The notes beneath the pieces are model-generated. The model ran no database searches. It worked only from the letters and a program-made list of their open reading frames with translations, and was not told where the DNA came from. A DNA stretch of 64,000 nt from a virus (lineage: Duplodnaviria; Caudoviricetes): IMG/VR virus record IMGVR_UViG_3300029955_000001; one strand, given 5' to 3'. Numbering within the stretch: position 1 is the stretch's first letter; each line of letters begins with the position of its first letter. A program made the translations under genes and the position numbers. Below, piece by piece: positions 6,449-30,797 of the stretch.

Positions 6449-6704
6449 GGTGCTTTTCCTTTAAACTACGCGGCTACTTTCCCCGCCGTTCTAGAATGTA
6501 TTAGTCATTCTCCCACTGCACGCTTGCCAATTGATAACACAGCCGCTTGTGGTCCATCGTGTGCTCATCTACGCTATAAACTTTCTTCTTGTTTACGCTC
6601 GGTGTGGCTACCGTTTGCAGGCTATACTTGCTGCAACTCAAGTTAAAACTTACGTCCAATACAACAATGGCATTTTAGCTTCAAGAATGACGACAAAATT
6701 CTCA

Positions 6705-7103
6705 TCACGCATGAAACAATGCAATTTCTTCAGGAGTTGGTGGTATCCCAAGGATATTATTATTGATTGTATATGTTGGTGCGCTCTTAACATTATTAGG
6801 AAGTAATGGATTTGTTTCTTCTTCAAGCAATGCAACGTTAGCTTTGATTATTTCTACAGAAGCGTTTTCCATTATCTTCCTAATTTTCTGTGCTTCACTG
6901 TTATCCACACTCACAACAATCGAAGTGCCGCCTATGGGGTGTGTTGTGCACTGTTCTTGAAAAGTATGTTCTTTCAGAGCTGATGTATAAAACTCTAACC
7001 GACGTTTCTTTTCGGCAAGTATATCTTCTTCTTTTGAATTTCGTTCTTTAGCGAAGGCAACACGTTCTTCAAATGTCTTGCCTTTTTGTTTAGCTGCACC
7101 CAT
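6705..7103 (-). CDS. hypothetical protein
   Basis: start moved to the ATG at 7103 (MGAAKQKGK), which follows AAGGAG. Confidence 0.65.
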   Translation of the reverse strand: MGAAKQKGKTFEERVAFAKERNSKEEDILAEKKRRLEFYTSALKEHTFQEQCTTHPIGGTSIVVSVDNSEAQKIRKIMENASVEIIKANVALLEEETNPLLPNNVKSAPTYTINNNILGIPPTPEEIALFHA

Positions 7104-7117
7104 TTTTATTTCTCCTT

Positions 7118-7378
7118 TTAATGAACAGAAGAAGAAGAAGACATTCCAAATTGTTCTTGACATTGAATATCTTGAGCGCACGCCCCAATATAATTATGGA
7201 GTTGTAATTCGGTTTCACCTGTAACTGCGCTAATTGCTTTATAGAGTTCTTCACGCTCTTGTGCTGTATCTGCGGTCCTAGTAACACGACCAACACAATT
7301 TTGATATACCAATCTAACTAAAACAGTCTTCGATGTTTTGATTAACTTTTCCACTAAAACTTCATTCATATTTAGCAT
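7118..7378 (-). CDS. hypothetical protein
   Basis: 86-aa ORF, tightly packed. Confidence 0.6.
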   Translation of the reverse strand: MLNMNEVLVEKLIKTSKTVLVRLVYQNCVGRVTRTADTAQEREELYKAISAVTGETELQLHNYIGACAQDIQCQEQFGMSSSSSVH

Positions 7379-7383
7379 TGGTG

Positions 7384-7695
7384 CTACTTTATTTGTCCCC
7401 CATGTTGTTTCTCCTTAGATTGGTTGTTATGCAGTTGCATCCACTCATTAACGTAATAGACACGTAAAGGTTCAATTAACTTTTCAAAATCAGCGCCTTG
7501 AGTTGTGTTCTTAGCTGTTGCCGATTTATGATGTTTCATAATTGGAGCTAAGGCTTCTTTTACGTAGTTTGATAGTTTCAGAACGTCACTAGCGGTTAGT
7601 GGTTTCGGTTTATGTGTTACGTTAGAATATGTTGGCAACATCATGACTCCATTTATTACTATAATCAGTAAACAAGTTATTTTCGACTGGGACAT
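7384..7695 (-). CDS. hypothetical protein
   Basis: 103-aa ORF, tightly packed. Confidence 0.55.
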   Translation of the reverse strand: MSQSKITCLLIIVINGVMMLPTYSNVTHKPKPLTASDVLKLSNYVKEALAPIMKHHKSATAKNTTQGADFEKLIEPLRVYYVNEWMQLHNNQSKEKQHGGQIK

Positions 7696-7728
7696 TAATT
7701 ACATCCCAGTCCTTTAAGAAATGTTCTT

Positions 7729-8142
7729 CTATGCGTGATTAATCCCCACGCGACGTATTGTCGGGAGTATTAGCTTACGCCCAGATGTTTCAATGGAAAT
7801 AGTTTTCGATTTATTACGTATTGTAATAAGTCTGTGGTCATGATGTTCTGATGAACCAGCGTATGGGTAACCGATGGATGATGGATTTTGCTGTATGTAA
7901 TAACGACCAATGTCGTTTGTTTCAAGATCATAGACAGTGACTACATCGCCATCATAATCTCCGCCTAGATTACGAAAAGCGTTTCTAGCACTAGTGGCGT
8001 GCGTACCATCATTGCTAACAGCAAGGACTAAACCTTGTTTCGGTACAAACAACGGCATCAATGAGGATGCTCTAACGATAGCTGGCGCAGCCACAACCAA
8101 CCCCGCGCCAAACATACCTTTAAGAAATGAACGACGTTCCAT
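7729..8142 (-). CDS. protein with twin-arginine (Tat)-type signal
   Basis: MERRSFLKGMFGAGLVVAAPAIVRA matches the RRxFLK Tat consensus. Confidence 0.7.
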   Translation of the reverse strand: MERRSFLKGMFGAGLVVAAPAIVRASSLMPLFVPKQGLVLAVSNDGTHATSARNAFRNLGGDYDGDVVTVYDLETNDIGRYYIQQNPSSIGYPYAGSSEHHDHRLITIRNKSKTISIETSGRKLILPTIRRVGINHA

Positions 8143-8345
8143 TATGTTTCCTTTTTAATCACGCGATATATACGATTAGCATATTTGCCTGCAAACGCCA
8201 CGAACATGTCTGTTGATTCAATGTGATCAGTAGGTAGCACTGGTTCGAAAAGAGTATCTCCAGTTATTCCTTCTGGTAACCCTTCGGGCAATGAAGTATT
8301 GTGCGCCAATAGCAGTTCATGATAGGTAATTACTTCGGTTGTCAT
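8142..8345 (-). CDS. hypothetical protein
   Basis: 67-aa ORF, stop/start overlap. Confidence 0.6.
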   Translation of the reverse strand: MTTEVITYHELLLAHNTSLPEGLPEGITGDTLFEPVLPTDHIESTDMFVAFAGKYANRIYRVIKKET

Positions 8346-8357
8346 TTTATCTCCACA

Positions 8358-8645
8358 TTATTCTTTAACAAGAAATTTAGCTATTCCTAGTCCATCGGGA
8401 AGATTATCTCCTGTATCACTCATTAAAAAATCTACATAGAGTTCTACAGTGCGAACATTAACAACTAGATCTCTGTAATTCATTTTACTTCTGCTACTAA
8501 AGTATGCACGATCGGATTCGCTGTGCATAGCTTCATATCGCTTTGTGGTCTCTTTATAGATCTTCTCAGCTTCGCTATTAGACTTTGCTAGCGCACTCTC
8601 TAAGGCAGATCCATGACCCACTAGCGTGTCTTTAAATCGGCGCAT
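8358..8645 (-). CDS. hypothetical protein
   Basis: 95-aa ORF with GGAG RBS. Confidence 0.65.
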   Translation of the reverse strand: MRRFKDTLVGHGSALESALAKSNSEAEKIYKETTKRYEAMHSESDRAYFSSRSKMNYRDLVVNVRTVELYVDFLMSDTGDNLPDGLGIAKFLVKE

Positions 8646-11964: not shown

Positions 11965-12013
11965 TTCTTATCCTTTATCTACACAAACAATTAACGTGTT
12001 CTATATTTTTTTA

Positions 12014-12300
12014 TTATTCTGGCATAGTGTCTATTTTATACCCCATGAATTCTGCGTATTCACGTATCGTTGATACAAATAACTTAATGTCGATTTTATC
12101 TCCATTTATTGGCCATCTAGTGGCAGCGAAGAAGTTAGCCACGATAAAACTTACAGCTTCATCACTCCCCGTGTCATTTGCCCCCCCCCCCACATTCCTA
12201 TCCAAAGATAGTCTTGTGGGTAGAGCTGAAGTATCTTAGAAAGCTGTTGTTCGGTAAGAATGATACCACTAATCTCTTTGATCTTATCTTTGACCCAGTT
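12014..12300 (-). pseudogene. hypothetical gene frameshifted at a G11 run (probable assembly error)
   Basis: upstream frame ...WIGMWG joins the ANDTGSDE frame only if the G run at 12181-12191 has 6, 9 or 12 bases; 5' boundary approximate. Confidence 0.45.
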
Positions 12301-12460
12301 GAACGTATCGTACGTTTGATGCATACCAACAATTTATAGTAATTTCATCATACGTTCTTTATGCATCTTCATGACCGTATTACAGTTGTCACTTGCAAAA
12401 CGCTTCGGATCACTTACAAGATATTTAGGTTCTATGATCAACATGCTATTTTCCTTTATT

Positions 12461-12847
12461 TTATTTAATCACAATGAAACGAAAATTATTGGAACACTTC
12501 TTAGGATCTTCGGTTTCACCAAACCAACGTAGTACCCAATAATTGTTACTTGAGTCTTCAAACGTTATTTCAGCTTTCCACATCTTGCCAGGATAAACAC
12601 CACTTGGTAATGAAGTGGAATATGTTTTTAGTTGACGAAATGTTTCTTGATTCATGATAGCGTTCTTATCATCTATCACAATGTCTTTCGAATCAGGCTG
12701 TTCCCAATATTGCCCCATTGGATCTGTGACTGGCGGAATAATATTTGGATCTTTCTTACCAAATATCTTATCCCAGCCATCTCGATATTTATTCGATGGT
12801 TCTCTTGAAACAATCGTATCACCTGTGATATCATTTTTACTTGCCAT
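12461..12847 (-). CDS. hypothetical protein
   Basis: 128-aa ORF with AAGGAG RBS. Confidence 0.7.
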   Translation of the reverse strand: MASKNDITGDTIVSREPSNKYRDGWDKIFGKKDPNIIPPVTDPMGQYWEQPDSKDIVIDDKNAIMNQETFRQLKTYSTSLPSGVYPGKMWKAEITFEDSSNNYWVLRWFGETEDPKKCSNNFRFIVIK

Positions 12848-12915
12848 TATTACTCCTTAGGAAATAAACTGGAACTTACGAACAACCCTGATAGATTTAA
12901 AGCGTTGATATTAAT

Positions 12916-13212
12916 TCATGCCTCGTATATAAAAATACAAATTTGTAGTTTTACGTGAAAAATACACTGCCATAAATCACCGTCACTATTGCCGCTGTCA
13001 ATAATGATTAAGTTATTGAAATTTTCTTTAATCTCTTTATAAGAAATTAAACTAGGATCATTACCGTTTTCTATTTTTTCAATTCTTTGCTGATTAATTG
13101 GAATTCTTTGGTAAGCGTAAACTCCACCAAGTGCATCTTCATCAAACGCTCTAGTAAGGTAATTATAAAACATTGATATTGCTGCGTCGCCGTATTCAAT
13201 TGTTGTTGCCAT
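12916..13212 (-). CDS. hypothetical protein
   Basis: 98-aa ORF. Confidence 0.6.
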   Translation of the reverse strand: MATTIEYGDAAISMFYNYLTRAFDEDALGGVYAYQRIPINQQRIEKIENGNDPSLISYKEIKENFNNLIIIDSGNSDGDLWQCIFHVKLQICIFIYEA

Positions 13213-13214
13213 TT

Positions 13215-13409
13215 CTATTTTCCTTTTTTCTCTTTGTAAATACCAAATGTTCGTAGATCTTGTTTAGCAATTTTTCGATCTTCTAGTATTACGTGTGTTG
13301 ATGTAGTTTCAATAAATTTACTGATAATAATTTCATCACTACTATAAAGCGTAACGCGTACGCGTTTTCCACGTTTACAACTAGTGTGGGAAGTTTTATG
13401 TTTTAACAT
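13215..13409 (-). CDS. hypothetical basic protein
   Basis: 64-aa ORF with AAGGAG RBS; first gene downstream of the dual-repeat array. Confidence 0.65.
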   Translation of the reverse strand: MLKHKTSHTSCKRGKRVRVTLYSSDEIIISKFIETTSTHVILEDRKIAKQDLRTFGIYKEKKGK

Positions 13410-13550
13410 TATTCTCCTTTATGATTATTAGTAAATTTATGGATGAGGAATGCTCTACCCTCACTCCTCTCCAATTGATACACTATGTTAAACTGTTGAG
13501 AGTCCGGTATCCTTAGGTCTCAACTTTTACTACTTGTCACTTCATATCGT

Positions 13551-15485
13551 TGGTTTACTATCTTTAACTGATTCACTTTTAACTCATGGTTTACTTTACC
13601 AGATTGATTCACTTCACTCCCTTGGTTTACTAAGACGAATTGATTCACTTATTGCTATTGGTTTTATTCGTGGTTCTGATACACTTAAACACATTGGTTT
13701 ACTAAACCTATTTGATTCACTACCCCGCTACGATACACTTGTTGGGTTTGGTTTACTATCTTGATTTGATGCACTAATTGGATCTGGTTTGCTTACGTTC
13801 ATTGACACGCTAATTAATTCTGGTTTACTAGTTCGTAATGACACACTTCGCCAGCTTGGTTTACTACACGTTAATGATACACTACGATGGCTTGGGTTTA
13901 TTTGCATTTCTGATACACTAGAGCACAACGGATTACTTTTATTGATTGATTCACTAACAACCATTGGTTTACTGTTAAGCTTTGATTCACTAATTAATAT
14001 TGGTTTACTGCCTTTCATTGATTCACTGCGGTGGGTTGGTTTACTGTCGAACGTTGATACACTATGCTTCCATGGTTTACTATACATTACTGATAAACTT
14101 ACAGGAGATGGTTTACTTATTTAGTTCGATACACTGGATACCAATGGTTTACTGTTGATTGGCGATACACTAATACCTGTTGGTTTACTTCTGTTTTATG
14201 ATTCAATCGTCGGGCTTGGTTTACTATCGTGTAATGATACACTTTTGACTAATGGTTTGCTAAATCAACTTGATACACTAACCCGCTATGGTTTACTGTT
14301 GATTGGTGACGCACTTCAGTATGTTGGTTTACTAACGGTCATTGATTCACTTTTAACTCATGGACTACTTGCGCATGCCGATACACTTCGTTACATTGAG
14401 TTACTAAAAATATGTGATACAATAAACTCCAATGGATTACTTCCCCATTTTGATACACTTTGCTGACTTGGTTTACTATGTTTCAACGATTAACTAGGTC
14501 TATCTGGTTTACTGTTTTTCACTGATGCGTTACGTAGCTTGGTTTACTTTCCTATTCTGACTCACTGTGCTCCTATGGATTACTTACACATGCTGATTCA
14601 CTACAGGTTAGTGGTTTACTTTGGCTGATTGATACACTAACGTATTATGGTTTACTTAACACCGCTGATACACTTAAACAGATTGGTTTACTTTGCCTTC
14701 TTGATTCAGTTGTTGAGTTTGGTTTACTAACGAATTTTGATTCACTTCAGTCGCATGGTTTACTGCCAGGCTTTGATACACTACGCTGCAATGGTTTACT
14801 TATGTCCCTTGACACACTGTTGCTTCTTGGATTACTTTATACCCGTTGATACACTGGTCTTAACTGGTTTACTCTGGTTCATTGATACACTTACTGTCTT
14901 CGGTTTACTATAACCTTCTGATACACTGTTATAAAACGAGTTAATTATCATCATTGATACTTTAGGTCATTTTGGTTTACTTTTGTTGTTTGATTCGCTA
15001 CTGTCTTCTGGTTTACTTTCTAGTTATGGCACACTAACTACCCATGAGTTACTGAAATTAATTGATACACTATTTCTTCTTGGTTTACTTCTTCGTTGTG
15101 ATACATTGACTTCCCGTGAGTTACTGACCGGAATTGATACACTAGTTCGACTTGGTTTACTGGATAACATTGATACACTTAAGAAGATTGGATTACTATT
15201 GGAATATGATTCACTAGAACTTTATGGTTTACTTGAACGCATTGATACACTACGATGCAGCGGTTTACATGTTTTTGTTGATACACTAATACCTGTTGGT
15301 TTACTACTTAATGTTGACACACTAACATCCCTTGAGTTACTCGTGCACGATGATACACTTAATATTCGTGGTTTACTGATTCATTCCGATTCACTATACA
15401 ACACTGGTTTACTTGTGCACCTTGATACACTACGCTCCTATGGTTTACTATCAAGTATTGATACACTAGTATCTTTTGGTTTACT
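13551..15485 (-). repeat. TIGR-like dual-repeat array: 108 alternating 9-nt repeats and 107 variable ~9-nt spacers (36-nt unit)
   Basis: plus strand TGGTTTACT-N9-TGAT(A/T)CACT-N9 (minus strand AGTAAACCA-N9-AGTG(T/A)ATCA-N9); 1935 bp = 107x18+9; stop codons and indels in every repeat-register frame. Confidence 0.9.
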
Positions 15486-15544
15486 AAGACACTACGACGT
15501 AAAAAGGAGCATAACTCCTAAGTAGTATTTAAATTCATTAGCTA

Positions 15545-15581
15545 CTCACTTAAGTGATATATGACTATATTTGTTTTGAAT
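15545..15581 (-). promoter_or_regulatory. promoter-like motif directly upstream of the dual-repeat array
   Basis: CTCAC-TTAAGT-GATATATGACT-ATATTTGTTTTGAAT aligns gaplessly with CTCAC-TATAAG-GATATATGTCT-AAAATTTTTTGGAAT at 24324-24360. Confidence 0.65.
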
Positions 15582-15582
15582 A

Positions 15583-15631
15583 TAAAAAAAAAATAGGGCA
15601 TAAATAGATGGATTATTTCTAATCCATCTAT
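15583..15631 (-). terminator. intrinsic terminator
   Basis: ATAGATGGATTA/TAATCCATCTAT hairpin with a nearby A-run (U-tract on minus); separates the tRNA/Y-RNA transcript from the array. Confidence 0.5.
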
Positions 15632-16011
15632 TCAATATTTCGATGAAACGAATGTTATTAAACTAGTGTATTAGTCACCAGCCGGAGATTCCAACATCCA
15701 ACAAACCTCCTCTTTTACTGCTTCGTTTTTAATGTATTCAATTCCGGCATTCTAATTGGAAACCAATCAGACAAAAGTGGAGTTGAAATTTCAGTAAACT
15801 AATGTCTACCTAGATTTTATTTAATCTCATCCCATGTAGCAGGAGTCTTGATCACAGTTAAAATCAGACTGTTTAAAACATAGTTGGGTCATGGAGACTG
15901 ACCAACATCACGCGTAATCCCCTGAGGCTTATTCCCCTCACAAGTAATCTCCCAGCCTATTTCTAAGCTTAGCGTCATCATTGGCTGACACAATTATCTA
16001 CTACCAATTAA

Positions 16012-16089
16012 TGGTGCTCACTGTCTGACTCGAACAGACGACCTCCGCATTACAAGTGCGGCGCTACTAGCCAACTGAGCTAAGCGAGC
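16012..16089 (-). tRNA. tRNA-Thr(UGU)
   Basis: cloverleaf: GCTCGCT/AGTGAGC acceptor, CCGCA-CTTGTAA-TGCGG anticodon arm, TTCGAGT T-loop, encoded CCA. Confidence 0.92.
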
Positions 16090-16106
16090 AATACAACGAA
16101 TACAAT

Positions 16107-16270
16107 TTGAACACAATACGACAAGATTGACAAGATAGCGAGATTGCTCCCAGCGCTCTATCCAGCTGAGCTACCTAAATCTCATTTCTGAAATATAGAG
16201 TAGGAATCGAACCTACGACCTCTTCATTAACAGTGTATGTAATCTTTATCTGCATTCGTAAAGCATTCAA
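16107..16270 (-). ncRNA. Y-RNA-like unit 13 (permuted tRNA cargo: T-arm, closed acceptor, D-arm)
   Basis: CGAAUGCAG...UUACA 5' arm and CUUGUC 3' arm; cargo GUAGGUUCGAUUCCUAC then UAGCUCAGCUGGAUAGAGC. Confidence 0.8.
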
Positions 16271-16277
16271 AACTCTG

Positions 16278-16400
16278 ACCTGACAAAATTAATAAGATAT
16301 TTTATAAACTCTTTCGAGTCTATTCCTTGGATTTGAACCAAGTAACTACAGGATTATTCATCCCTCGTATTTGCCCATGTAATATTATTGGCATTCAGGT
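16278..16400 (-). ncRNA. Y-RNA-like unit 12 (T-arm cargo)
   Basis: UGAAUGCC...UUACA / UUUGUC, closing stem CCUGA/UCAGG; CUUGGUUCAAAUCCAAG T-arm. Confidence 0.7.
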
Positions 16401-16414
16401 GTAAACTTTAAAAA

Positions 16415-16515
16415 CTATTGGTGACAAGTGTTGTTAAGAAACGGTACTGCTGGGCGAAGAAAGGGAGTCGAAACTCCCGCATCTCTGCGATGTAATCTTA
16501 ACTGCATTCACCGTA
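16415..16515 (-). ncRNA. Y-RNA-like unit 11
   Basis: UGAAUGCAG...UUACA / CACUUGUC, closing stem GGUGA/UCACC; GGGAG-UUUCGA-CUCCC hairpin. Confidence 0.72.
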
Positions 16516-16523
16516 AACTCGAT

Positions 16524-16653
16524 TGATCACTTCATGACAATTGTTGATGAAATTTCAGCAGTTTCCTGCTCCGCTGGTCATTGCTAGGAACTCTAACCTA
16601 ACTACCTCTCACGGCTTTTCAATGTAATTCCATCTGCATTCATGTTGTAATCA
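16524..16653 (-). ncRNA. Y-RNA-like unit 10
   Basis: UGAAUGCAG...UUACA / AUUGUC, closing stem CAUGA/UCAUG. Confidence 0.7.
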
Positions 16654-16660
16654 AAACCTT

Positions 16661-16735
16661 TGGCAGACCGTATGGGTTTCGATCCCATCTAACCACCTTG
16701 AAAGGGTGATGACCTCACCAGAAGTCGAACGGTCC
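16661..16735 (-). tRNA. tRNA-Glu(UUC), embedded in the Y-RNA array
   Basis: GGACCGT/ACGGTCT acceptor, TCACC-CTTTCAA-GGTGG anticodon arm, atypical T-loop ATCGAAA, encoded CCA. Confidence 0.88.
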
Positions 16736-16744
16736 ATAAAACAC

Positions 16745-16846
16745 TTTCCGACAAGTTAAGTAAAGATAGCCTTTCGGCATGGCGAAATATCAGATGTTTC
16801 CATCCAATAGCTTGGCTCGCAATGTAATCCTTACAGCATTCGGAAT
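16745..16846 (-). ncRNA. Y-RNA-like unit 9
   Basis: CGAAUGCUG...UUACA / ACUUGUC, closing stem UUCCGA/UCGGAA. Confidence 0.72.
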
Positions 16847-16855
16847 AAAACTTTA

Positions 16856-16930
16856 GAGTACTGAATGACAAAATCAATATTGACGTAAATATTCGTAATA
16901 TGTAATCAATACAGCATTCAGTCAGCACTC
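16856..16930 (-). ncRNA. Y-RNA-like unit 8 (minimal, 75 nt)
   Basis: UGAAUGCUG...UUACA / UUUGUC, closing stem GAGUGCUGA/UCAGUACUC. Confidence 0.7.
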
Positions 16931-16939
16931 GTAACTTGA

Positions 16940-17089
16940 TTGAGTCGTAACGACAAGAATTAATAAATCAAGGGTTTCCCCTAGCTAGCGTTCTAACCAA
17001 CTGAACTACAACTCTTTTCAGAATTGACTGGAATCGAACCAGCGACCTCTTGCCTGACTGTAGATTTATCAGCATTCATTACAACTCAA
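16940..17089 (-). ncRNA. Y-RNA-like unit 7 (YrlA-type permuted tRNA cargo)
   Basis: 14-bp closing stem UUGAGUUGUAAUGA/UCGUUACGACUCAA; T-arm GCUGGUUCGAUUCCAGU, acceptor CAAUUCU-GAAA-AGAGUUG, D-arm UAGUUCAGUUGGUUAGAAC. Confidence 0.85.
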
Positions 17090-17141
17090 AACCGGTATCC
17101 GCACATTAGTGATATGTACAATTGAAACTTTAATTAAATCA

Positions 17142-17290
17142 GATGTTTCGTAACAAGTAATAAGTAAAACATGATTGTAGACCTGAGGGAGTGAGCCTCA
17201 GTGCGTTGCCGTCACGCTGTCCCTCACTTACGAGAGGTATGGGGTCGAACCATATCACTTATGTAGTTTTACTCGCATTTACAAACCATC
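17142..17290 (-). ncRNA. Y-RNA-like unit 6 (permuted tRNA cargo plus extra hairpin)
   Basis: AAAUGCGAG...CUACA / ACUUGUU; T-arm UAUGG-UUCGACC-CCAUA, closed acceptor, D-like arm, CUGAGG-CUCACUC-CCUCAG. Confidence 0.75.
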
Positions 17291-17302
17291 CAAATCTTTG
17301 CA

Positions 17303-17453
17303 TGAAACAATTACCAAGCAGACTATGACAAGGGATAGCTAAGAAGTGTCCTTTCGAACTTTTCCCCCATAAGGTATCTATAAGTAACAGAAATAACTTA
17401 TGGGGGAAAATGTAATCCTAACTGCATTCGCAGAAAGCTTGGTAATTGTTTCA
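17303..17453 (-). ncRNA. Y-RNA-like unit 5 (long-hairpin cargo)
   Basis: 17-bp perfect closing repeat TGAAACAATTACCAAGC; CGAAUGCAG...UUACA / CUUGUC; internal 14-bp UUUUCCCCCAUAAG hairpin. Confidence 0.78.
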
Positions 17454-17459
17454 AACTAT

Positions 17460-17614
17460 TTTTGAGTTATTCGACAAGTGGGAATGAATTAACGCGGTTA
17501 CCCGCCAGCTGTCCTATAATTAGACGAGATCCTCATGGGATTACAAGATTAGCCGAAGCACGCTTGTATTCGCTGATTGAAAGTGTAAATTCATCTGCAT
17601 TCGAAATACTCAAA
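17460..17614 (-). ncRNA. Y-RNA-like unit 4
   Basis: CGAAUGCAG...UUUACA / CACUUGUCG, closing stem UUUUGAGU/ACUCAAAA. Confidence 0.75.
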
Positions 17615-17781
17615 ACTTTTACTACTACATAGGTTGATCACAACCGACTTTACGGATATTACTTCTACACCAACAAGCACCGCTTTTAAACGGGATGTAA
17701 TTGAGGTTAGGTACAGGTATTAACTGCAAACCCTTCCTACGAATTTTACGTGACCACAACTCTTTACTACTACAATTTAAA

Positions 17782-17933
17782 TAAGTGCGTATAACAAGTG
17801 TATTAACAAAACATAACAAGACTGAAGTTTCCTCCAGCGCGTCTACCAGTTTCGCCACATCCCTGTAAACAGGAACGATAGGATTCGAACCTATACCCTA
17901 AATGTAGTTTTGTCTGCATTTACACAACACTTA
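17782..17933 (-). ncRNA. Y-RNA-like unit 3 (YrlA-type permuted tRNA cargo)
   Basis: AAAUGCAG...CUACA / CACUUGUU; T-arm AUAGGUUCGAAUCCUAU, acceptor CGUUCCUG-UUUA-CAGGGAUG, D-arm UGGCGAAACUGGUAGACGC. Confidence 0.8.
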
Positions 17934-17940
17934 AACTTGA

Positions 17941-18098
17941 TTGAAAGCGTTATAACAAGTATCAACAAAAAACAATACTAATGCTTTATCAGAGGGATTT
18001 GAACCCCATCTTTTTACCTTATGGCAAAACGCTTTTACCGGACATAAGCTATGAACCACAAAAGAACTAATCTTCATTTGCATTTATAACGCTTTCAA
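17941..18098 (-). ncRNA. Y-RNA-like unit 2 (tRNA cargo in normal D-anticodon-T order)
   Basis: 15-bp perfect closing repeat TTGAAAGCGTTATAA; AAAUGCA / ACUUGUU; D-like arm, hairpin, GGGG-UUCAAAU-CCC. Confidence 0.75.
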
Positions 18099-18105
18099 AA
18101 ACATT

Positions 18106-18190
18106 ATATTTAAACACATTATGACAAGTGTATCGCTGATATCCAGTTAGTGTATGTAATCAGTGAAGCATTCGTAACATGTTTAAATAT
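18106..18190 (-). ncRNA. Y-RNA-like unit 1 (minimal, 85 nt)
   Basis: 16-bp closing stem whose two mismatches are G-U pairs only on the minus strand; CGAAUGC...UUACA / CACUUGUC. Confidence 0.8.
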
Positions 18191-18224
18191 ATTGTCTCAA
18201 ATGATAGGTTAACACGGTAAATTT

Positions 18225-18251
18225 TCACTCCTAGTGTTAGTAGGAGTGAAT
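18225..18251. terminator. hairpin immediately after the Ro60 stop codon
   Basis: TTCACTCCTA-GTGTTAG-TAGGAGTGAA. Confidence 0.5.
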
Positions 18252-18257
18252 TTCTAC

Positions 18258-30098: not shown

Positions 30099-30797
30099 TT
30101 AACTGCATGTAGTTTCTTTATCTTCTACAAGAAGTAATTGTTTCAAATTTTTCAGTGGTCGTTTTATCTGAGCTTTAGCGTTATAGAGAATAAGACATGC
30201 CGGACACGCACCACACGGTTTAGTAATGTTGTTATCTTTCACTGGTAATTCACACACCCATGTTTTCAAAAGAAGATTTTTCGGTAAAGCTCTTAGAACA
30301 TCAGTTTTCCTAAAACCCTTTTCAATTAATGGGAAACGTAAAGGAATTACAGGTTTATTACCATTAACCAATTTCCATATTTGTTTCCAAAGCTTTTTAA
30401 TTGTATCGAGTTTTATCGTAATGTCATCTCCAAGAATATACCCAATCTGCACTTCTGATACACGGTATGGATCAGCTATGTATACCGCTCCGATGATCCA
30501 CGGTAAAGTTTGTCTGAACTCCATGAAACTACCATAAGTTCCATTGAGTTCACGTAACTCTTTTATACCGTGATCGGTTAGTACTAAATGTTCCCCTTGT
30601 TTTAACAATATCTTAAATATCTCAGAACGTGCTTTTAATTCCATCTGAACTTTTTCTTCATGCTGACAACAATCTACATAGAGCGTATATACATCTGACT
30701 TTTGTAAAGCATTCATCAACATAAGAGTGGAATCATTTCCGCCAGAGAATAACAATAGCGGTAGTTTTCCATCAGAGGATATTTTATTCTTTTTCAC
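30099..30797 (-). CDS. QueC-like PP-loop ATPase
   Basis: LLFSGGNDST PP-loop and C-terminal C-x9-CGACPAC zinc site. Confidence 0.8.
   Translation of the reverse strand: MKKNKISSDGKLPLLLFSGGNDSTLMLMNALQKSDVYTLYVDCCQHEEKVQMELKARSEIFKILLKQGEHLVLTDHGIKELRELNGTYGSFMEFRQTLPWIIGAVYIADPYRVSEVQIGYILGDDITIKLDTIKKLWKQIWKLVNGNKPVIPLRFPLIEKGFRKTDVLRALPKNLLLKTWVCELPVKDNNITKPCGACPACLILYNAKAQIKRPLKNLKQLLLVEDKETTCS

What the first reader, a model, noticed from the sequence alone, without database searches (positions are those of the whole stretch)
16107..18190. Tandem array of 13 Y-RNA-like genes downstream of a phage Ro60
Seen: 13 consecutive units of 75-165 nt. Each has its own closing stem (up to 17 perfect bp, with G-U pairs favouring the minus strand) enclosing the same bipartite motif, 5' GAAUGC(A/U)G-N7-UUACA and 3' (CA)CUUGUC. 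Established: Ro60 binds a conserved bulged helix in Y RNAs; human Y3 has CCGAGUGCAG and CACUUGAC at these positions, and bacterial rsr loci usually carry only one or two Y RNAs (e.g. YrlA/YrlB). Inference: the phage encodes a library of Ro60 adaptor RNAs, one protein scaffold with 13 interchangeable tethers. I know of no described locus with this many.
Basis: partly seen in the sequence, partly recalled or inferred. Interest (0 to 1): 0.9.

Follow-up and report, generated by a model that had tools for sequence, protein, structure and literature searches.

The report
Thirteen Y-RNA genes behind phage Ro60
A giant phage from peat carries a gene for the ring-shaped RNA-binding protein Ro60, followed by 13 different small RNA genes that share one Ro60-type docking stem; this is the largest set of such partner RNAs I found, and smaller arrays turn out to be the rule in hundreds of related soil loci.

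Summary
On the minus strand, 16108-18184 holds exactly 13 units of 74-161 nt. Each has its own closing stem, the motifs (G/A)AAUGC ... YUACA and UUGU(C/U), and a different inner module. A covariance model finds the 13 at 48-89 bits; the next best hit in the 64 kb scores 17.6 bits. The gene upstream is an intact Ro60 by Pfam and predicted fold.

The units are YrlA/YrlB-type Y RNAs, although all score below Rfam's cut-offs. The same RNA occurs in 76 of 80 metagenomic Ro60 loci, always on the Ro60 strand. Contigs found through the RNA alone encode Ro60 in 4 of 5 cases.

Three peat metatranscriptomes cover the array more deeply than the flanking genes.

Arrays of 3-9 units are normal in this Ro60 clade, in jumbo phages and in one presumably cellular rsr-RNA ligase-rtcB locus. 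So 13 is an extreme case, not a unique kind. I found no paper describing such arrays. This scan has noted similar phage arrays on other DNA, one of about nine units.

Ro60 binding and the "13 interchangeable tethers" idea remain inference.

Verdict: a new variant of a known system, of moderate to high interest.

The parts
18258..19931 (-). Ro60 (Rsr-type) gene, 557 aa, TROVE/HEAT ring plus vWA domain with MIDAS motif DVSGSM
   Evidence: Pfam vWA_Ro60 65.5 bits and TROVE 29.8 bits, both above cut-off. PDB sequence hits: D. radiodurans Rsr 6e-20, Xenopus and human Ro60, phiLo Ro60. AF2 model pLDDT 82; the top 13 Foldseek hits are all Ro60, TM 0.58-0.73. MIDAS residues are invariant in 12 homologues.
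18224..18250 (-). 10-bp hairpin directly after the Ro60 stop codon, followed by a weak U tract; possibly a partial terminator or a processing site
   Evidence: Read from the sequence; not tested.
18111..18184 (-). U1, short unit (74 nt) with a single-hairpin module, YrlB-like; its closing stem extends to 18201/18095
   Evidence: R1 60.3 bits; MFE fold; stem of 27 bp; Rfam YrlB 21.4 bits, below cut-off.
17942..18096 (-). U2, 155 nt, AAAUGC/UUGUU handle variant; the module contains a T-arm-like hairpin and a weak cloverleaf
   Evidence: R1 74.7 bits; Rfam tRNA 19.6 bits, E=1, inside it.
17782..17932 (-). U3, 151 nt, AAAUGC/UUGUU variant with a tRNA-like module (T arm, closed acceptor-like hairpin, D arm)
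   Evidence: Held out of the seed and still found at 48.2 bits; Rfam YrlA 24.6 bits; T arm.
17614..17781 (-). Unassigned spacer between U3 and U4; contains degenerate handle-like words and may be a decayed unit
   Evidence: No model hit at E<=1; folds no better than shuffles, z 0.17.
17461..17613 (-). U4, 153 nt, module of three hairpins with no T loop
   Evidence: R1 82.6 bits; fold.
17315..17440 (-). U5, 126 nt, module is one long 14-bp hairpin plus a small hairpin
   Evidence: R1 63.5 bits; fold.
17140..17291 (-). U6, 152 nt, AAAUGC/UUGUU variant, T arm plus further hairpins
   Evidence: R1 68.5 bits; T arm.
16940..17088 (-). U7, 149 nt, canonical YrlA-type unit (T arm, acceptor-like hairpin, D arm)
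   Evidence: R1 89.1 bits; Rfam YrlA 45.3 bits, E 3e-8, full length, below the cut-off of 69.
16855..16930 (-). U8, short unit (76 nt) with a single-hairpin module
   Evidence: R1 50.7 bits; fold.
16738..16852 (-). U9, 115 nt, module of hairpins with no T loop
   Evidence: R1 78.0 bits.
16661..16735 (-). tRNA-Glu(UUC) gene embedded in the array between U9 and U10
   Evidence: ARAGORN; Rfam tRNA 41.8 bits.
16524..16652 (-). U10, 129 nt, degenerate tRNA-like module
   Evidence: R1 82.6 bits; Rfam YrlA 23.6 bits; similarity to the U13 module z 5.1.
16411..16520 (-). U11, 110 nt, module with a T-arm-like hairpin
   Evidence: R1 78.5 bits; Rfam YrlA 23.4 bits.
16270..16407 (-). U12, 138 nt, T arm plus acceptor-like hairpin
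   Evidence: R1 55.5 bits; T arm.
16108..16268 (-). U13, 161 nt, canonical YrlA-type unit, closest to U7
   Evidence: R1 80.9 bits; Rfam YrlA 29.9 bits on the tRNA-like core; module similarity to U7 z 17.
16012..16089 (-). tRNA-Thr(UGU) gene closing the array
   Evidence: ARAGORN; Rfam tRNA 58 bits.

Best explanation
The 13 units are genes for Y RNAs of the bacterial YrlA/YrlB type. They are the RNA partners of the phage's own Ro60.

**Proposed mechanism**
1. The units are transcribed on the minus strand together with tRNA-Glu and tRNA-Thr, at least partly as a multi-unit precursor.
2. Each unit folds on its own because its closing stem has a private sequence.
3. The constant part is the handle: closing stem, internal loop AUGC / (C)UUG, a second helix and YUACA. 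It docks on the Ro60 ring as in known Ro60-Y RNA complexes.
4. The variable module points away from the ring. It is tRNA-like in U3, U7 and U13, partly so in U2, U6, U10, U11 and U12, and made of plain hairpins in U1, U4, U5, U8 and U9.
5. As in other Y RNAs, the module would recruit a partner protein or control access to the Ro60 cavity.

**Shown:** anatomy, covariation, linkage to Ro60, transcription.
**Inferred:** Ro60 binding (about 0.8), and that different modules mean different partners (about 0.4-0.5).
For: **Handle and homology**
- The handle is constant and structured. All 13 units score 48-89 bits and nothing else in the window comes close.
- Compensatory changes occur in 18 of 22 pairs within the window. 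Across 50 units from 14 sources they occur in 21 of 22 pairs, with 87% of cells paired against 33-52% when slid.
- Rfam YrlA aligns full length to U7 (45.3 bits, E 3e-8) and more weakly to U13, U3, U10 and U11. The alignment matches GAAUGC, CUA and CUUGUC of the family consensus.
- The motifs fit the CGAA-containing Ro60 site and the YUAY described for YrlA (PMC4201824).
- They differ by one base each from human Y3.

**Protein**
- The upstream protein is a complete Ro60.

**Linkage, searching from Ro60 to the RNA**
- 76 of 80 metagenomic Ro60 loci carry units. There are 229 hits, all on the Ro60 strand and nearly all directly downstream.
- The 4 loci without units have 250 nt or less after the gene.
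- 14 of the 15 phage contigs searched whole carry units. The one miss (G009) is a fragment estimated at 15% complete whose Ro60 locus has a unit at locus level. Ten of the 15 were found through Ro60.

**Linkage, searching from the RNA to Ro60**
- Of 5 contigs found only through the RNA motif and model, 4 encode Ro60 (E 1e-66 to 1e-146). None of 3 control contigs does.
- Only 89 of 50,697 phage records encode a Ro60 homologue.

**Expression**
- In three metatranscriptomes from different studies, contigs over the array reach k-mer depth 10-56.
- The flanking genes reach 0-6 and the Ro60 gene 3-7, while the DNA run is flat at 4-8.
- One RNA contig spans tRNA-Thr through U6.

**Module diversity and maintenance**
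- 74 of 78 module pairs show no similarity.
- In a set of related soil loci at 60-80% identity, five different unit types keep their order and their modules.
Against: - No binding experiment exists for this Ro60 or these RNAs.
- All units fall below Rfam's curated cut-offs: YrlA best 45.3 against 69, YrlB 21.4 against 97. No hit to metazoan Y_RNA appears at E<=10.
- Contig data cannot show discrete RNA ends, strand or abundance per unit.
- In some relatives the units lie far from Ro60: about 80 kb in G008 and 11 kb in phage Mx1.
- The non-tRNA-like modules of this window have no recognisable counterpart in the distant phage relatives, so their constraint is unproven here.
- The 64-kb window encodes no RtcB or Rnl1 partner enzyme.
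Confidence: 0.78

Rival explanations
1. The units are Ro60 ligands but not a library of tethers. They would be functionally redundant copies that raise Y RNA dosage, or simply gate or sequester Ro60 (the phage's or the host's). On this view the module differences come from drift, or from selection against recombination and mispairing in a tandem transcript.
For: - Closing stems are all different, which by itself prevents inter-unit mispairing.
- Non-tRNA-like modules are not conserved in distant phage relatives.
- Unit number varies widely between relatives, from 1 to 9.
- A gating role for Y RNA is established in D. radiodurans (bioRxiv 10.1101/312249).
Against: - In related soil loci the distinct unit types and their order are kept at 60-80% identity.
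- Short and tRNA-like classes coexist in most arrays, as YrlA and YrlB do in Salmonella.
- Pure dosage would be met more simply by identical copies.
Confidence: 0.3
2. The units work without Ro60. They would be tRNA mimics or decoys of the phage tRNA island, for example against host tRNA-targeting nucleases or tRNA-modifying enzymes. The conserved handle would then be a processing or stability signal.
For: - The array sits in a tRNA/tmRNA island and contains real tRNAs.
- Seven or more units carry T-arm-like hairpins.
- In G008 and Mx1 the units sit in tRNA regions far from Ro60.
Against: - The handle is the part shared with YrlA and metazoan Y RNAs, in which it is the Ro60 site (PMC4201824).
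- Five units have no tRNA-like feature.
- The units lack an anticodon loop and free acceptor ends.
- Co-occurrence with Ro60 is near total in both search directions.
Confidence: 0.07
3. The array is a non-functional or selfish repeat: a palindromic element that multiplied in an intergenic region.
For: Tandem arrangement in a gene-poor stretch.
Against: - Units share no sequence apart from the motifs, yet keep pairing through compensatory changes that include strand-specific G-U pairs.
- They are transcribed above the level of the neighbouring genes.
- They are conserved next to Ro60 in hundreds of loci.
Confidence: 0.02

Closest known systems
Bacterial Rsr (Ro60) with YrlA and YrlB, e.g. the Salmonella rsr-yrlBA-rtcBA operon and M. 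smegmatis (Chen et al. 2014, PMC4201824; Rfam RF02553, RF02565)
   Same: - Encoded next to Ro60 on the same strand.
- Closing stem formed by the 5' and 3' ends, carrying CGAAUG... and ...CUUGUC.
- YUAY after the second helix.
- A tRNA-like module (T arm, closed acceptor-like hairpin, D arm) in some units and a short hairpin module in others.
   Different: - 13 genes instead of 2.
- Most modules are not tRNA-like.
- All units score below the Rfam cut-offs.
- Both strands of the handle are conserved.
- No rtcB or rtcA in the window.
- The array is embedded in a phage tRNA/tmRNA island.
Thermus phage phiLo Ro60 with Yrl1 and Yrl2 (PMC12135203)
   Same: A phage-encoded Ro60 with adjacent Y-like RNAs that contain a CGAA motif. 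In that system, binding to Ro60 and complex formation with host PNPase were shown in vitro.
   Different: - Two RNAs, located upstream of the gene.
- The proteins are only distantly related (E 5e-7 over about 120 residues).
- No array and no tRNA-like modules are reported.
Metazoan Y RNAs (hY1, hY3, hY4, hY5)
   Same: - Modular design: a Ro60-binding stem plus a variable loop region.
- The handle words differ from hY3 by one base each: CGAAUGCAG against CGAGUGCAG, and CACUUGUC against CACUUGAC.
   Different: - No hit to Rfam Y_RNA at E<=10.
- Covariation puts the phage stem in the YrlA register, not the metazoan bulged-helix register.
- Two to four genes per vertebrate species (PMC4201824).
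Uncharacterised soil loci found here, e.g. L200 (903-kb contig): Ro60, nine units, Rnl1-like RNA ligase, RtcB
   Same: The same Ro60 clade (about 53% identity), the same handle, and a tandem array directly downstream on the same strand.
   Different: - Probably cellular, and followed by RNA-repair ligases.
- Nine units or fewer.
- No tRNA genes in the locus.
Nematode stem-bulge RNAs (recalled from memory, not checked here)
   Same: A lineage in which Y RNA homologues expanded to many genes per genome.
   Different: Eukaryotic, dispersed genes; no phage or operon context.

Membership tests
Ro60 / Rsr protein | TROVE (HEAT-repeat ring) domain | tested here: met
   Pfam TROVE 29.8 bits (cut-off 23). 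The predicted fold matches Ro60 structures over the full length, TM 0.58-0.73.
Ro60 / Rsr protein | C-terminal vWA domain with a MIDAS site | tested here: met
   Pfam vWA_Ro60 65.5 bits. D369, S371, S373, T446 and D470 are invariant in 12 homologues.
Ro60 / Rsr protein | Binds Y RNA and misfolded RNA | not testable with these tools
   Needs pull-down or gel-shift experiments.
Y RNA (general) | Long stem formed by pairing of the 5' and 3' ends | tested here: met
   MFE folds. Closing-stem pairs: 12 of 13 change on both sides, 86.5% of cells paired. Holds in 50 units across 14 sources.
Y RNA (general) | Conserved Ro60-binding sequence within that stem | tested here: met
   AAUGC and UUGU are invariant in all 13 units. 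They align to GAAUGC/CUUGUC of the YrlA consensus and differ by one base from the hY3 words. The full published GNCGAAN0-1G motif is only partly matched.
Y RNA (general) | Encoded beside, and co-occurring with, a Ro60 gene | tested here: met
   The array starts 57 nt after the Ro60 stop. 76 of 80 related loci carry units. In the reverse test, 4 of 5 against 0 of 3 contigs encode Ro60.
Y RNA (general) | Physically bound by Ro60 in vivo | not testable with these tools
   No RNA-protein prediction or experimental data are available.
Y RNA (general) | Expressed as a discrete small RNA of about 80-150 nt | tested here: inconclusive
   Three metatranscriptomes cover the array above its neighbours. 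Contigs cannot show RNA ends, and one contig spans several units.
YrlA (Rfam RF02553) | Score at or above the curated gathering cut-off (69 bits) | tested here: not met
   Best 45.3 bits (U7); others 23-30 bits; eight units have no hit.
YrlA (Rfam RF02553) | tRNA-like effector module: T arm, closed acceptor-like stem, D arm | tested here: met
   Met for U3, U7 and U13 (alignments). Partial in U2, U6, U10, U11 and U12. Absent in U1, U4, U5, U8 and U9.
YrlB (Rfam RF02565) | Score at or above the gathering cut-off (97 bits) | tested here: not met
   21.4 bits on U1 only. The resemblance is in size and architecture, not in sequence.
Metazoan Y_RNA (Rfam RF00019) | Match to the family model | tested here: not met
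   No hit at E<=10 in 15700-18400.

The most novel reading that the evidence does not exclude
The array is an adaptor set. One phage Ro60 ring is loaded with any of about ten structurally different Y RNA modules, and each module directs the ring to a different host or phage RNA-handling enzyme or RNA substrate. This would give a jumbo phage a multi-purpose RNA surveillance or host-takeover tool. The modules would turn over quickly between phages, while the handle stays fixed from phages to animals.
Probability: 0.25. Interest if true: 0.85.

Novelty: new variant of a known kind. Interest (0 to 1): 0.62.

Why it matters
What the variable half of bacterial Y RNAs does is still unknown. Published systems offer one to four RNAs per organism.

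This locus puts 13 RNAs with one handle and about ten unrelated modules behind a single Ro60. The survey shows that arrays of 3-9 are the norm in at least 76 related loci from soils, peat and jumbo phages. One of them is followed by RNA-repair ligases.

Together these give a natural panel for asking which module binds what. They also show that current models (Rfam YrlA/YrlB) miss most of the family.

Phage Mx1 is a culturable entry point. It encodes a Ro60 of this clade and two units, one unannotated and one annotated as a 40-aa protein.

Tried and rejected
- **Rfam at gathering cut-offs:** found only tRNAs in the window. The Y RNA identity rests on sub-threshold YrlA alignments plus my own models.
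- **DNA similarity to 50,697 phage records:** only tRNA-Thr matched, so there is no close sequenced relative.
- **A 14th unit in the 17614-17781 gap:** rejected. No model hit, and folding is no better than shuffles.
- **Promoter word CATATATCAC suggested by other notes:** not enriched (10 found, 6.7 expected), so I make no promoter claim.
- **Whole genome:** not held. RtcB, PNPase or further units elsewhere in the phage could not be sought. A tblastn search with RtcB and Rnl1 from L200 found nothing in the window.
- **Literature gaps:** the supplementary tables of Chen et al. 2014 and the 2020 Annual Review were not available. The published maximum of Y RNAs per locus could not be read. Three literature searches found no description of phage Y RNA arrays.
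- **Orthologues of the non-tRNA-like modules in distant phage relatives:** none detectable.
- **Neighbouring proteins:** Pfam and PHROGs scans gave no RNA-repair function. I found only a QueC-like protein, thymidylate synthase and kinase, and virion proteins.
- **Metazoan-style pairing register (GAAUG with CACUU):** considered and rejected. It needs the outer stem shifted by 2, and the slid controls do not support that.
Full report
**1. What is there**

The minus strand of 16108-18184 carries 13 units. Each unit has four parts:
- a 5' word (G/A)AAUGC;
- a helix strand, then YUACA (UUAGU in U2);
- a variable inner part of 15-100 nt;
- the returning helix strand and a 3' word UUGU(C/U).

Fourteen of the 102 minus-strand AAUGC sites in the window lie in this 2.1 kb. 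MFE folds close every unit with a stem made from sequence just outside the two words. The stems are bipartite: 5-7 bp, a small internal loop, then 8-14 bp, giving 12-27 bp in all.

With 12-nt stems the unit sizes are 74, 155, 151, 153, 126, 152, 149, 76, 115, 129, 110, 138 and 161 nt. Spacers are mostly 2-46 nt. The two exceptions are a bona fide tRNA-Glu between U9 and U10 and an unassigned stretch of about 170 nt between U3 and U4. tRNA-Thr follows U13.

**2. Is it more than chance?**

I aligned 12 units and specified two helices: 13 closing pairs and 9 pairs of helix 2.
- Pairing is 79.8% in register against 35-52% when the 3' partner is slid.
- Eighteen of 22 pairs change on both sides.
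- None of 500 shuffles reaches the observed covariation score.
- The closing G-C next to the motif becomes A-U in U2, U3 and U6, giving AAAUGC with UUGUU.

The model built from this alignment, run over the whole window on both strands with filters off, gives 13 hits of 48-89 bits. All are in the array and on the minus strand. U3 was left out of the seed and was still found (E 4e-9). The next best hit scores 17.6 bits. The gap between U3 and U4 is not a unit.

**3. The protein**

The ORF 18258-19931 (minus strand, 557 aa) ends 57 nt before the outer stem of U1.
- It passes the Pfam cut-offs for vWA_Ro60 and TROVE.
- It matches D. radiodurans Rsr (6e-20), Xenopus and human Ro60, and phage phiLo Ro60 in the PDB.
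- It keeps the MIDAS residues.
- Its AlphaFold model (pLDDT 82) matches Ro60 structures for the top 13 Foldseek hits, over the full length.

The window is phage-like: virion proteins, thymidylate synthase and kinase, and co-oriented genes. Earlier notes of this scan place it in a jumbo phage genome (not tested here).

**4. What the units are**

Rfam's YrlA model aligns full length to U7 (45.3 bits, E 3e-8). It aligns more weakly to U13, U3, U10 and U11, and the YrlB model aligns weakly to U1. All of these are below the curated cut-offs.

The alignments match the family's GAAUGC, CUA and CUUGUC. In U3, U7 and U13 they also match the T arm, the closed acceptor-like hairpin and the D arm. These are the published hallmarks of YrlA: a CGAA-containing Ro60 site in the terminal stem, YUAY, and a tRNA-like effector module (PMC4201824; bioRxiv 10.1101/312249).

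Published hY3 primers contain CCGAGUGCAG and, on the reverse complement, CACUUGAC. No hit to the metazoan Y_RNA model was obtained.

**5. Linkage to Ro60 across genomes**

*From Ro60 to the RNA.*
- Thirteen IMG/VR contigs and phage Mx1 encode Ro60 at 40-51% identity.
- A second model built from 25 units finds units on most of these contigs when they are searched whole. Counts are G003 8, G001 7 in tandem, G008 6, G007 5, G005 4, G002 3, G004 3, Mx1 2 and G006 1.
- In metagenomes there are 407 relatives, the best at 58% identity. Among the best 80 loci, 76 carry units: 229 hits, every one on the Ro60 strand and nearly all directly downstream.
- The four loci without units have 250 nt or less after the gene.
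- Typical arrays have 3-5 units. The largest are L200 with 9 and L207 with 7.

*From the RNA to Ro60.*
- An exact-word scan of IMG/VR gave 80 loci, mostly chance matches. The model found true units in six of them and none in the other 74 loci, about 620 kb.
- Of five unit-bearing contigs, four encode Ro60 (E 1e-66 to 1e-146). The fifth is a fragment estimated at 30% complete. None of three control contigs encodes it.
- Searched whole with the model, these five contigs carry 9, 4, 4, 4 and 2 units; the 424-kb complete phage G011 has the 9.
- Ro60 homologues occur in only 89 of 50,697 phage records.

Across 50 units from 14 sources, 87% of cells pair against 33-52% when slid, and 21 of 22 pairs show compensatory change. 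This alignment was fitted to the model, which flatters it somewhat.

**6. Expression**

The stretch is present in 20 public runs from peat and permafrost, 8 of them metatranscriptomes. I laid contigs from three RNA runs of different studies and one DNA run on 12000-24000.

| Region | k-mer depth |
|---|---|
| DNA run, whole stretch | 4-8 (flat) |
| RNA runs, genes at 12000-15200 | 0-6 |
| RNA runs, Ro60 gene | 3-7 |
| RNA runs, 16411-18086 | 6-45 |
| RNA runs, 15650-16410 (U13, U12, tRNA-Thr and beyond) | 48-60 |

One RNA contig runs from tRNA-Thr through U6, which points to a multi-unit precursor.

That these libraries report real RNA is shown by two RNA-only junctions nearby that correspond to intron removal (section 9). 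Contigs cannot give strand, ends or per-unit levels, so discrete small RNAs are not shown.

A strong terminator-like hairpin with a U tract at about 19990-20030 coincides with the sharp end of a very abundant upstream RNA. The array signal is therefore not simple read-through from that RNA.

**7. How alike are the modules?**

- Only U7, U13 and U3, and weakly U10, resemble each other. Seventy-four of 78 module pairs show no similarity.
- Across the distant phage relatives, only the tRNA-like modules are recognisable.
- In a group of soil loci related to each other at 60-80% identity, five different unit types keep their order and modules, with occasional loss or replacement of a whole unit. 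The types are a short hairpin, T arm only, multi-hairpin, D-arm type and canonical tRNA-like. This argues that the units in such arrays are individually maintained, not redundant copies. It was not shown for this window itself.

**8. Interpretation and novelty**

The best reading is a Ro60-Y RNA system with an unusually expanded and diversified RNA side.

Phage Ro60 with Y-like RNAs is known: 22 phages in PMC4201824, and phiLo with two RNAs in PMC12135203. Published counts are one to four per organism. I found no paper describing arrays.

This scan has noted similar things on other DNA: phage Ro60-like genes with four partner RNAs, one with about nine, and bacterial rsr loci with three to five.

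The L200 locus reads Ro60, nine units, Rnl1-like ligase, RtcB. This ties the clade to the known rsr-Y RNA-rtcB repair operon. The phage window has no such ligase.

The finding is therefore a new variant of a known kind. The number 13 is the maximum in my survey, not a singular feature. The "interchangeable tethers" mechanism follows from the established modular model of Y RNAs but is untested here.

**9. Surroundings**

The array is part of an RNA island.
- A tRNA-Leu(UAA) gene at about 23288-23975 is split by a 601-nt intron. ARAGORN calls the tRNA once the exons are joined. All three RNA runs, but not the DNA run, contain a 599-nt circular junction at depth 216-1135.
- A permuted tmRNA at 21846-22303 is interrupted in its T loop by 236 nt. 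One RNA run shows the spliced junction. After removal of the insert, ARAGORN calls a permuted tmRNA with the tag ASNDSTYDQRLAA.
- The ORF-poor 20020-21850 is very abundant in RNA and remains unexplained.

Noticed in passing
window 23288-23975 (minus strand): A class II tRNA-Leu(UAA) gene split in the anticodon loop by a 601-nt intron (23342-23942) that ends in G. ARAGORN and Rfam miss the gene until the exons are joined. All three metatranscriptomes, but not the DNA run, contain a 599-nt circular junction at depth 216-1135. This fits a group I intron circle that has lost its first 2 nt.
   Followed up: yes
window 21846-22303 (minus strand): A permuted (two-piece) tmRNA with a 236-nt insertion in the T loop (22029-22264). 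One RNA run shows the spliced junction at depth 99, absent from DNA. After removing the insert, ARAGORN calls a permuted tmRNA with the tag ASNDSTYDQRLAA. Rfam tmRNA_permuted scores 40.4 bits against a cut-off of 47.
   Followed up: yes
window 20020-21850 (minus strand): An ORF-poor stretch with RNA contig depth 135-650 against DNA depth 7. It ends sharply at a terminator-like hairpin plus U tract near 19990-20030. It contains tRNA-like pieces: a D arm near 20840, and T arms near 20715 and 21575. One could be a tRNA with an insertion of about 90 nt. No Rfam family matched.
   Followed up: partly
window 13551-15485: Another first-reader note flags this stretch as a short-repeat guide-like array. 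In the three metatranscriptomes, contig depth is 0-6 up to about 15200 and 0-3 beyond, far below the Y RNA and tRNA regions.
   Followed up: no
L200 5001-11117 (metagenome contig of 903 kb): Ro60, then nine Y-like units (6608-8374), then an Rnl1-type RNA ligase and RtcB on the same strand. This looks like a cellular RNA-repair operon with an expanded Y RNA array.
   Followed up: partly
Myxococcus phage Mx1, OR576727.2 45163-45301 and 45515-45631: Two Y-like units in the tRNA array, 11 kb upstream of the phage's Ro60. One is unannotated. The other is annotated as a 40-aa hypothetical protein (WNM70101.1). Mx1 is a culturable system for testing.
   Followed up: partly
window 16896: T in the window and in the DNA run, C in all three RNA runs (inside U8). 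Most likely strain variation between samples. Editing is not excluded.
   Followed up: no
window 30099-30797 (minus strand): QueC-like protein (Pfam 31.6 bits), hinting at 7-deazaguanine modification genes in this phage.
   Followed up: no
L201 2849-4954 (483-kb contig) and L002, L006, L009: Ro60 genes of this clade often sit beside large tRNA arrays (17-28 tRNAs). L006 also has a tmRNA. The Ro60/Y RNA/tRNA/tmRNA island looks like a recurring module of large phages.
   Followed up: partly
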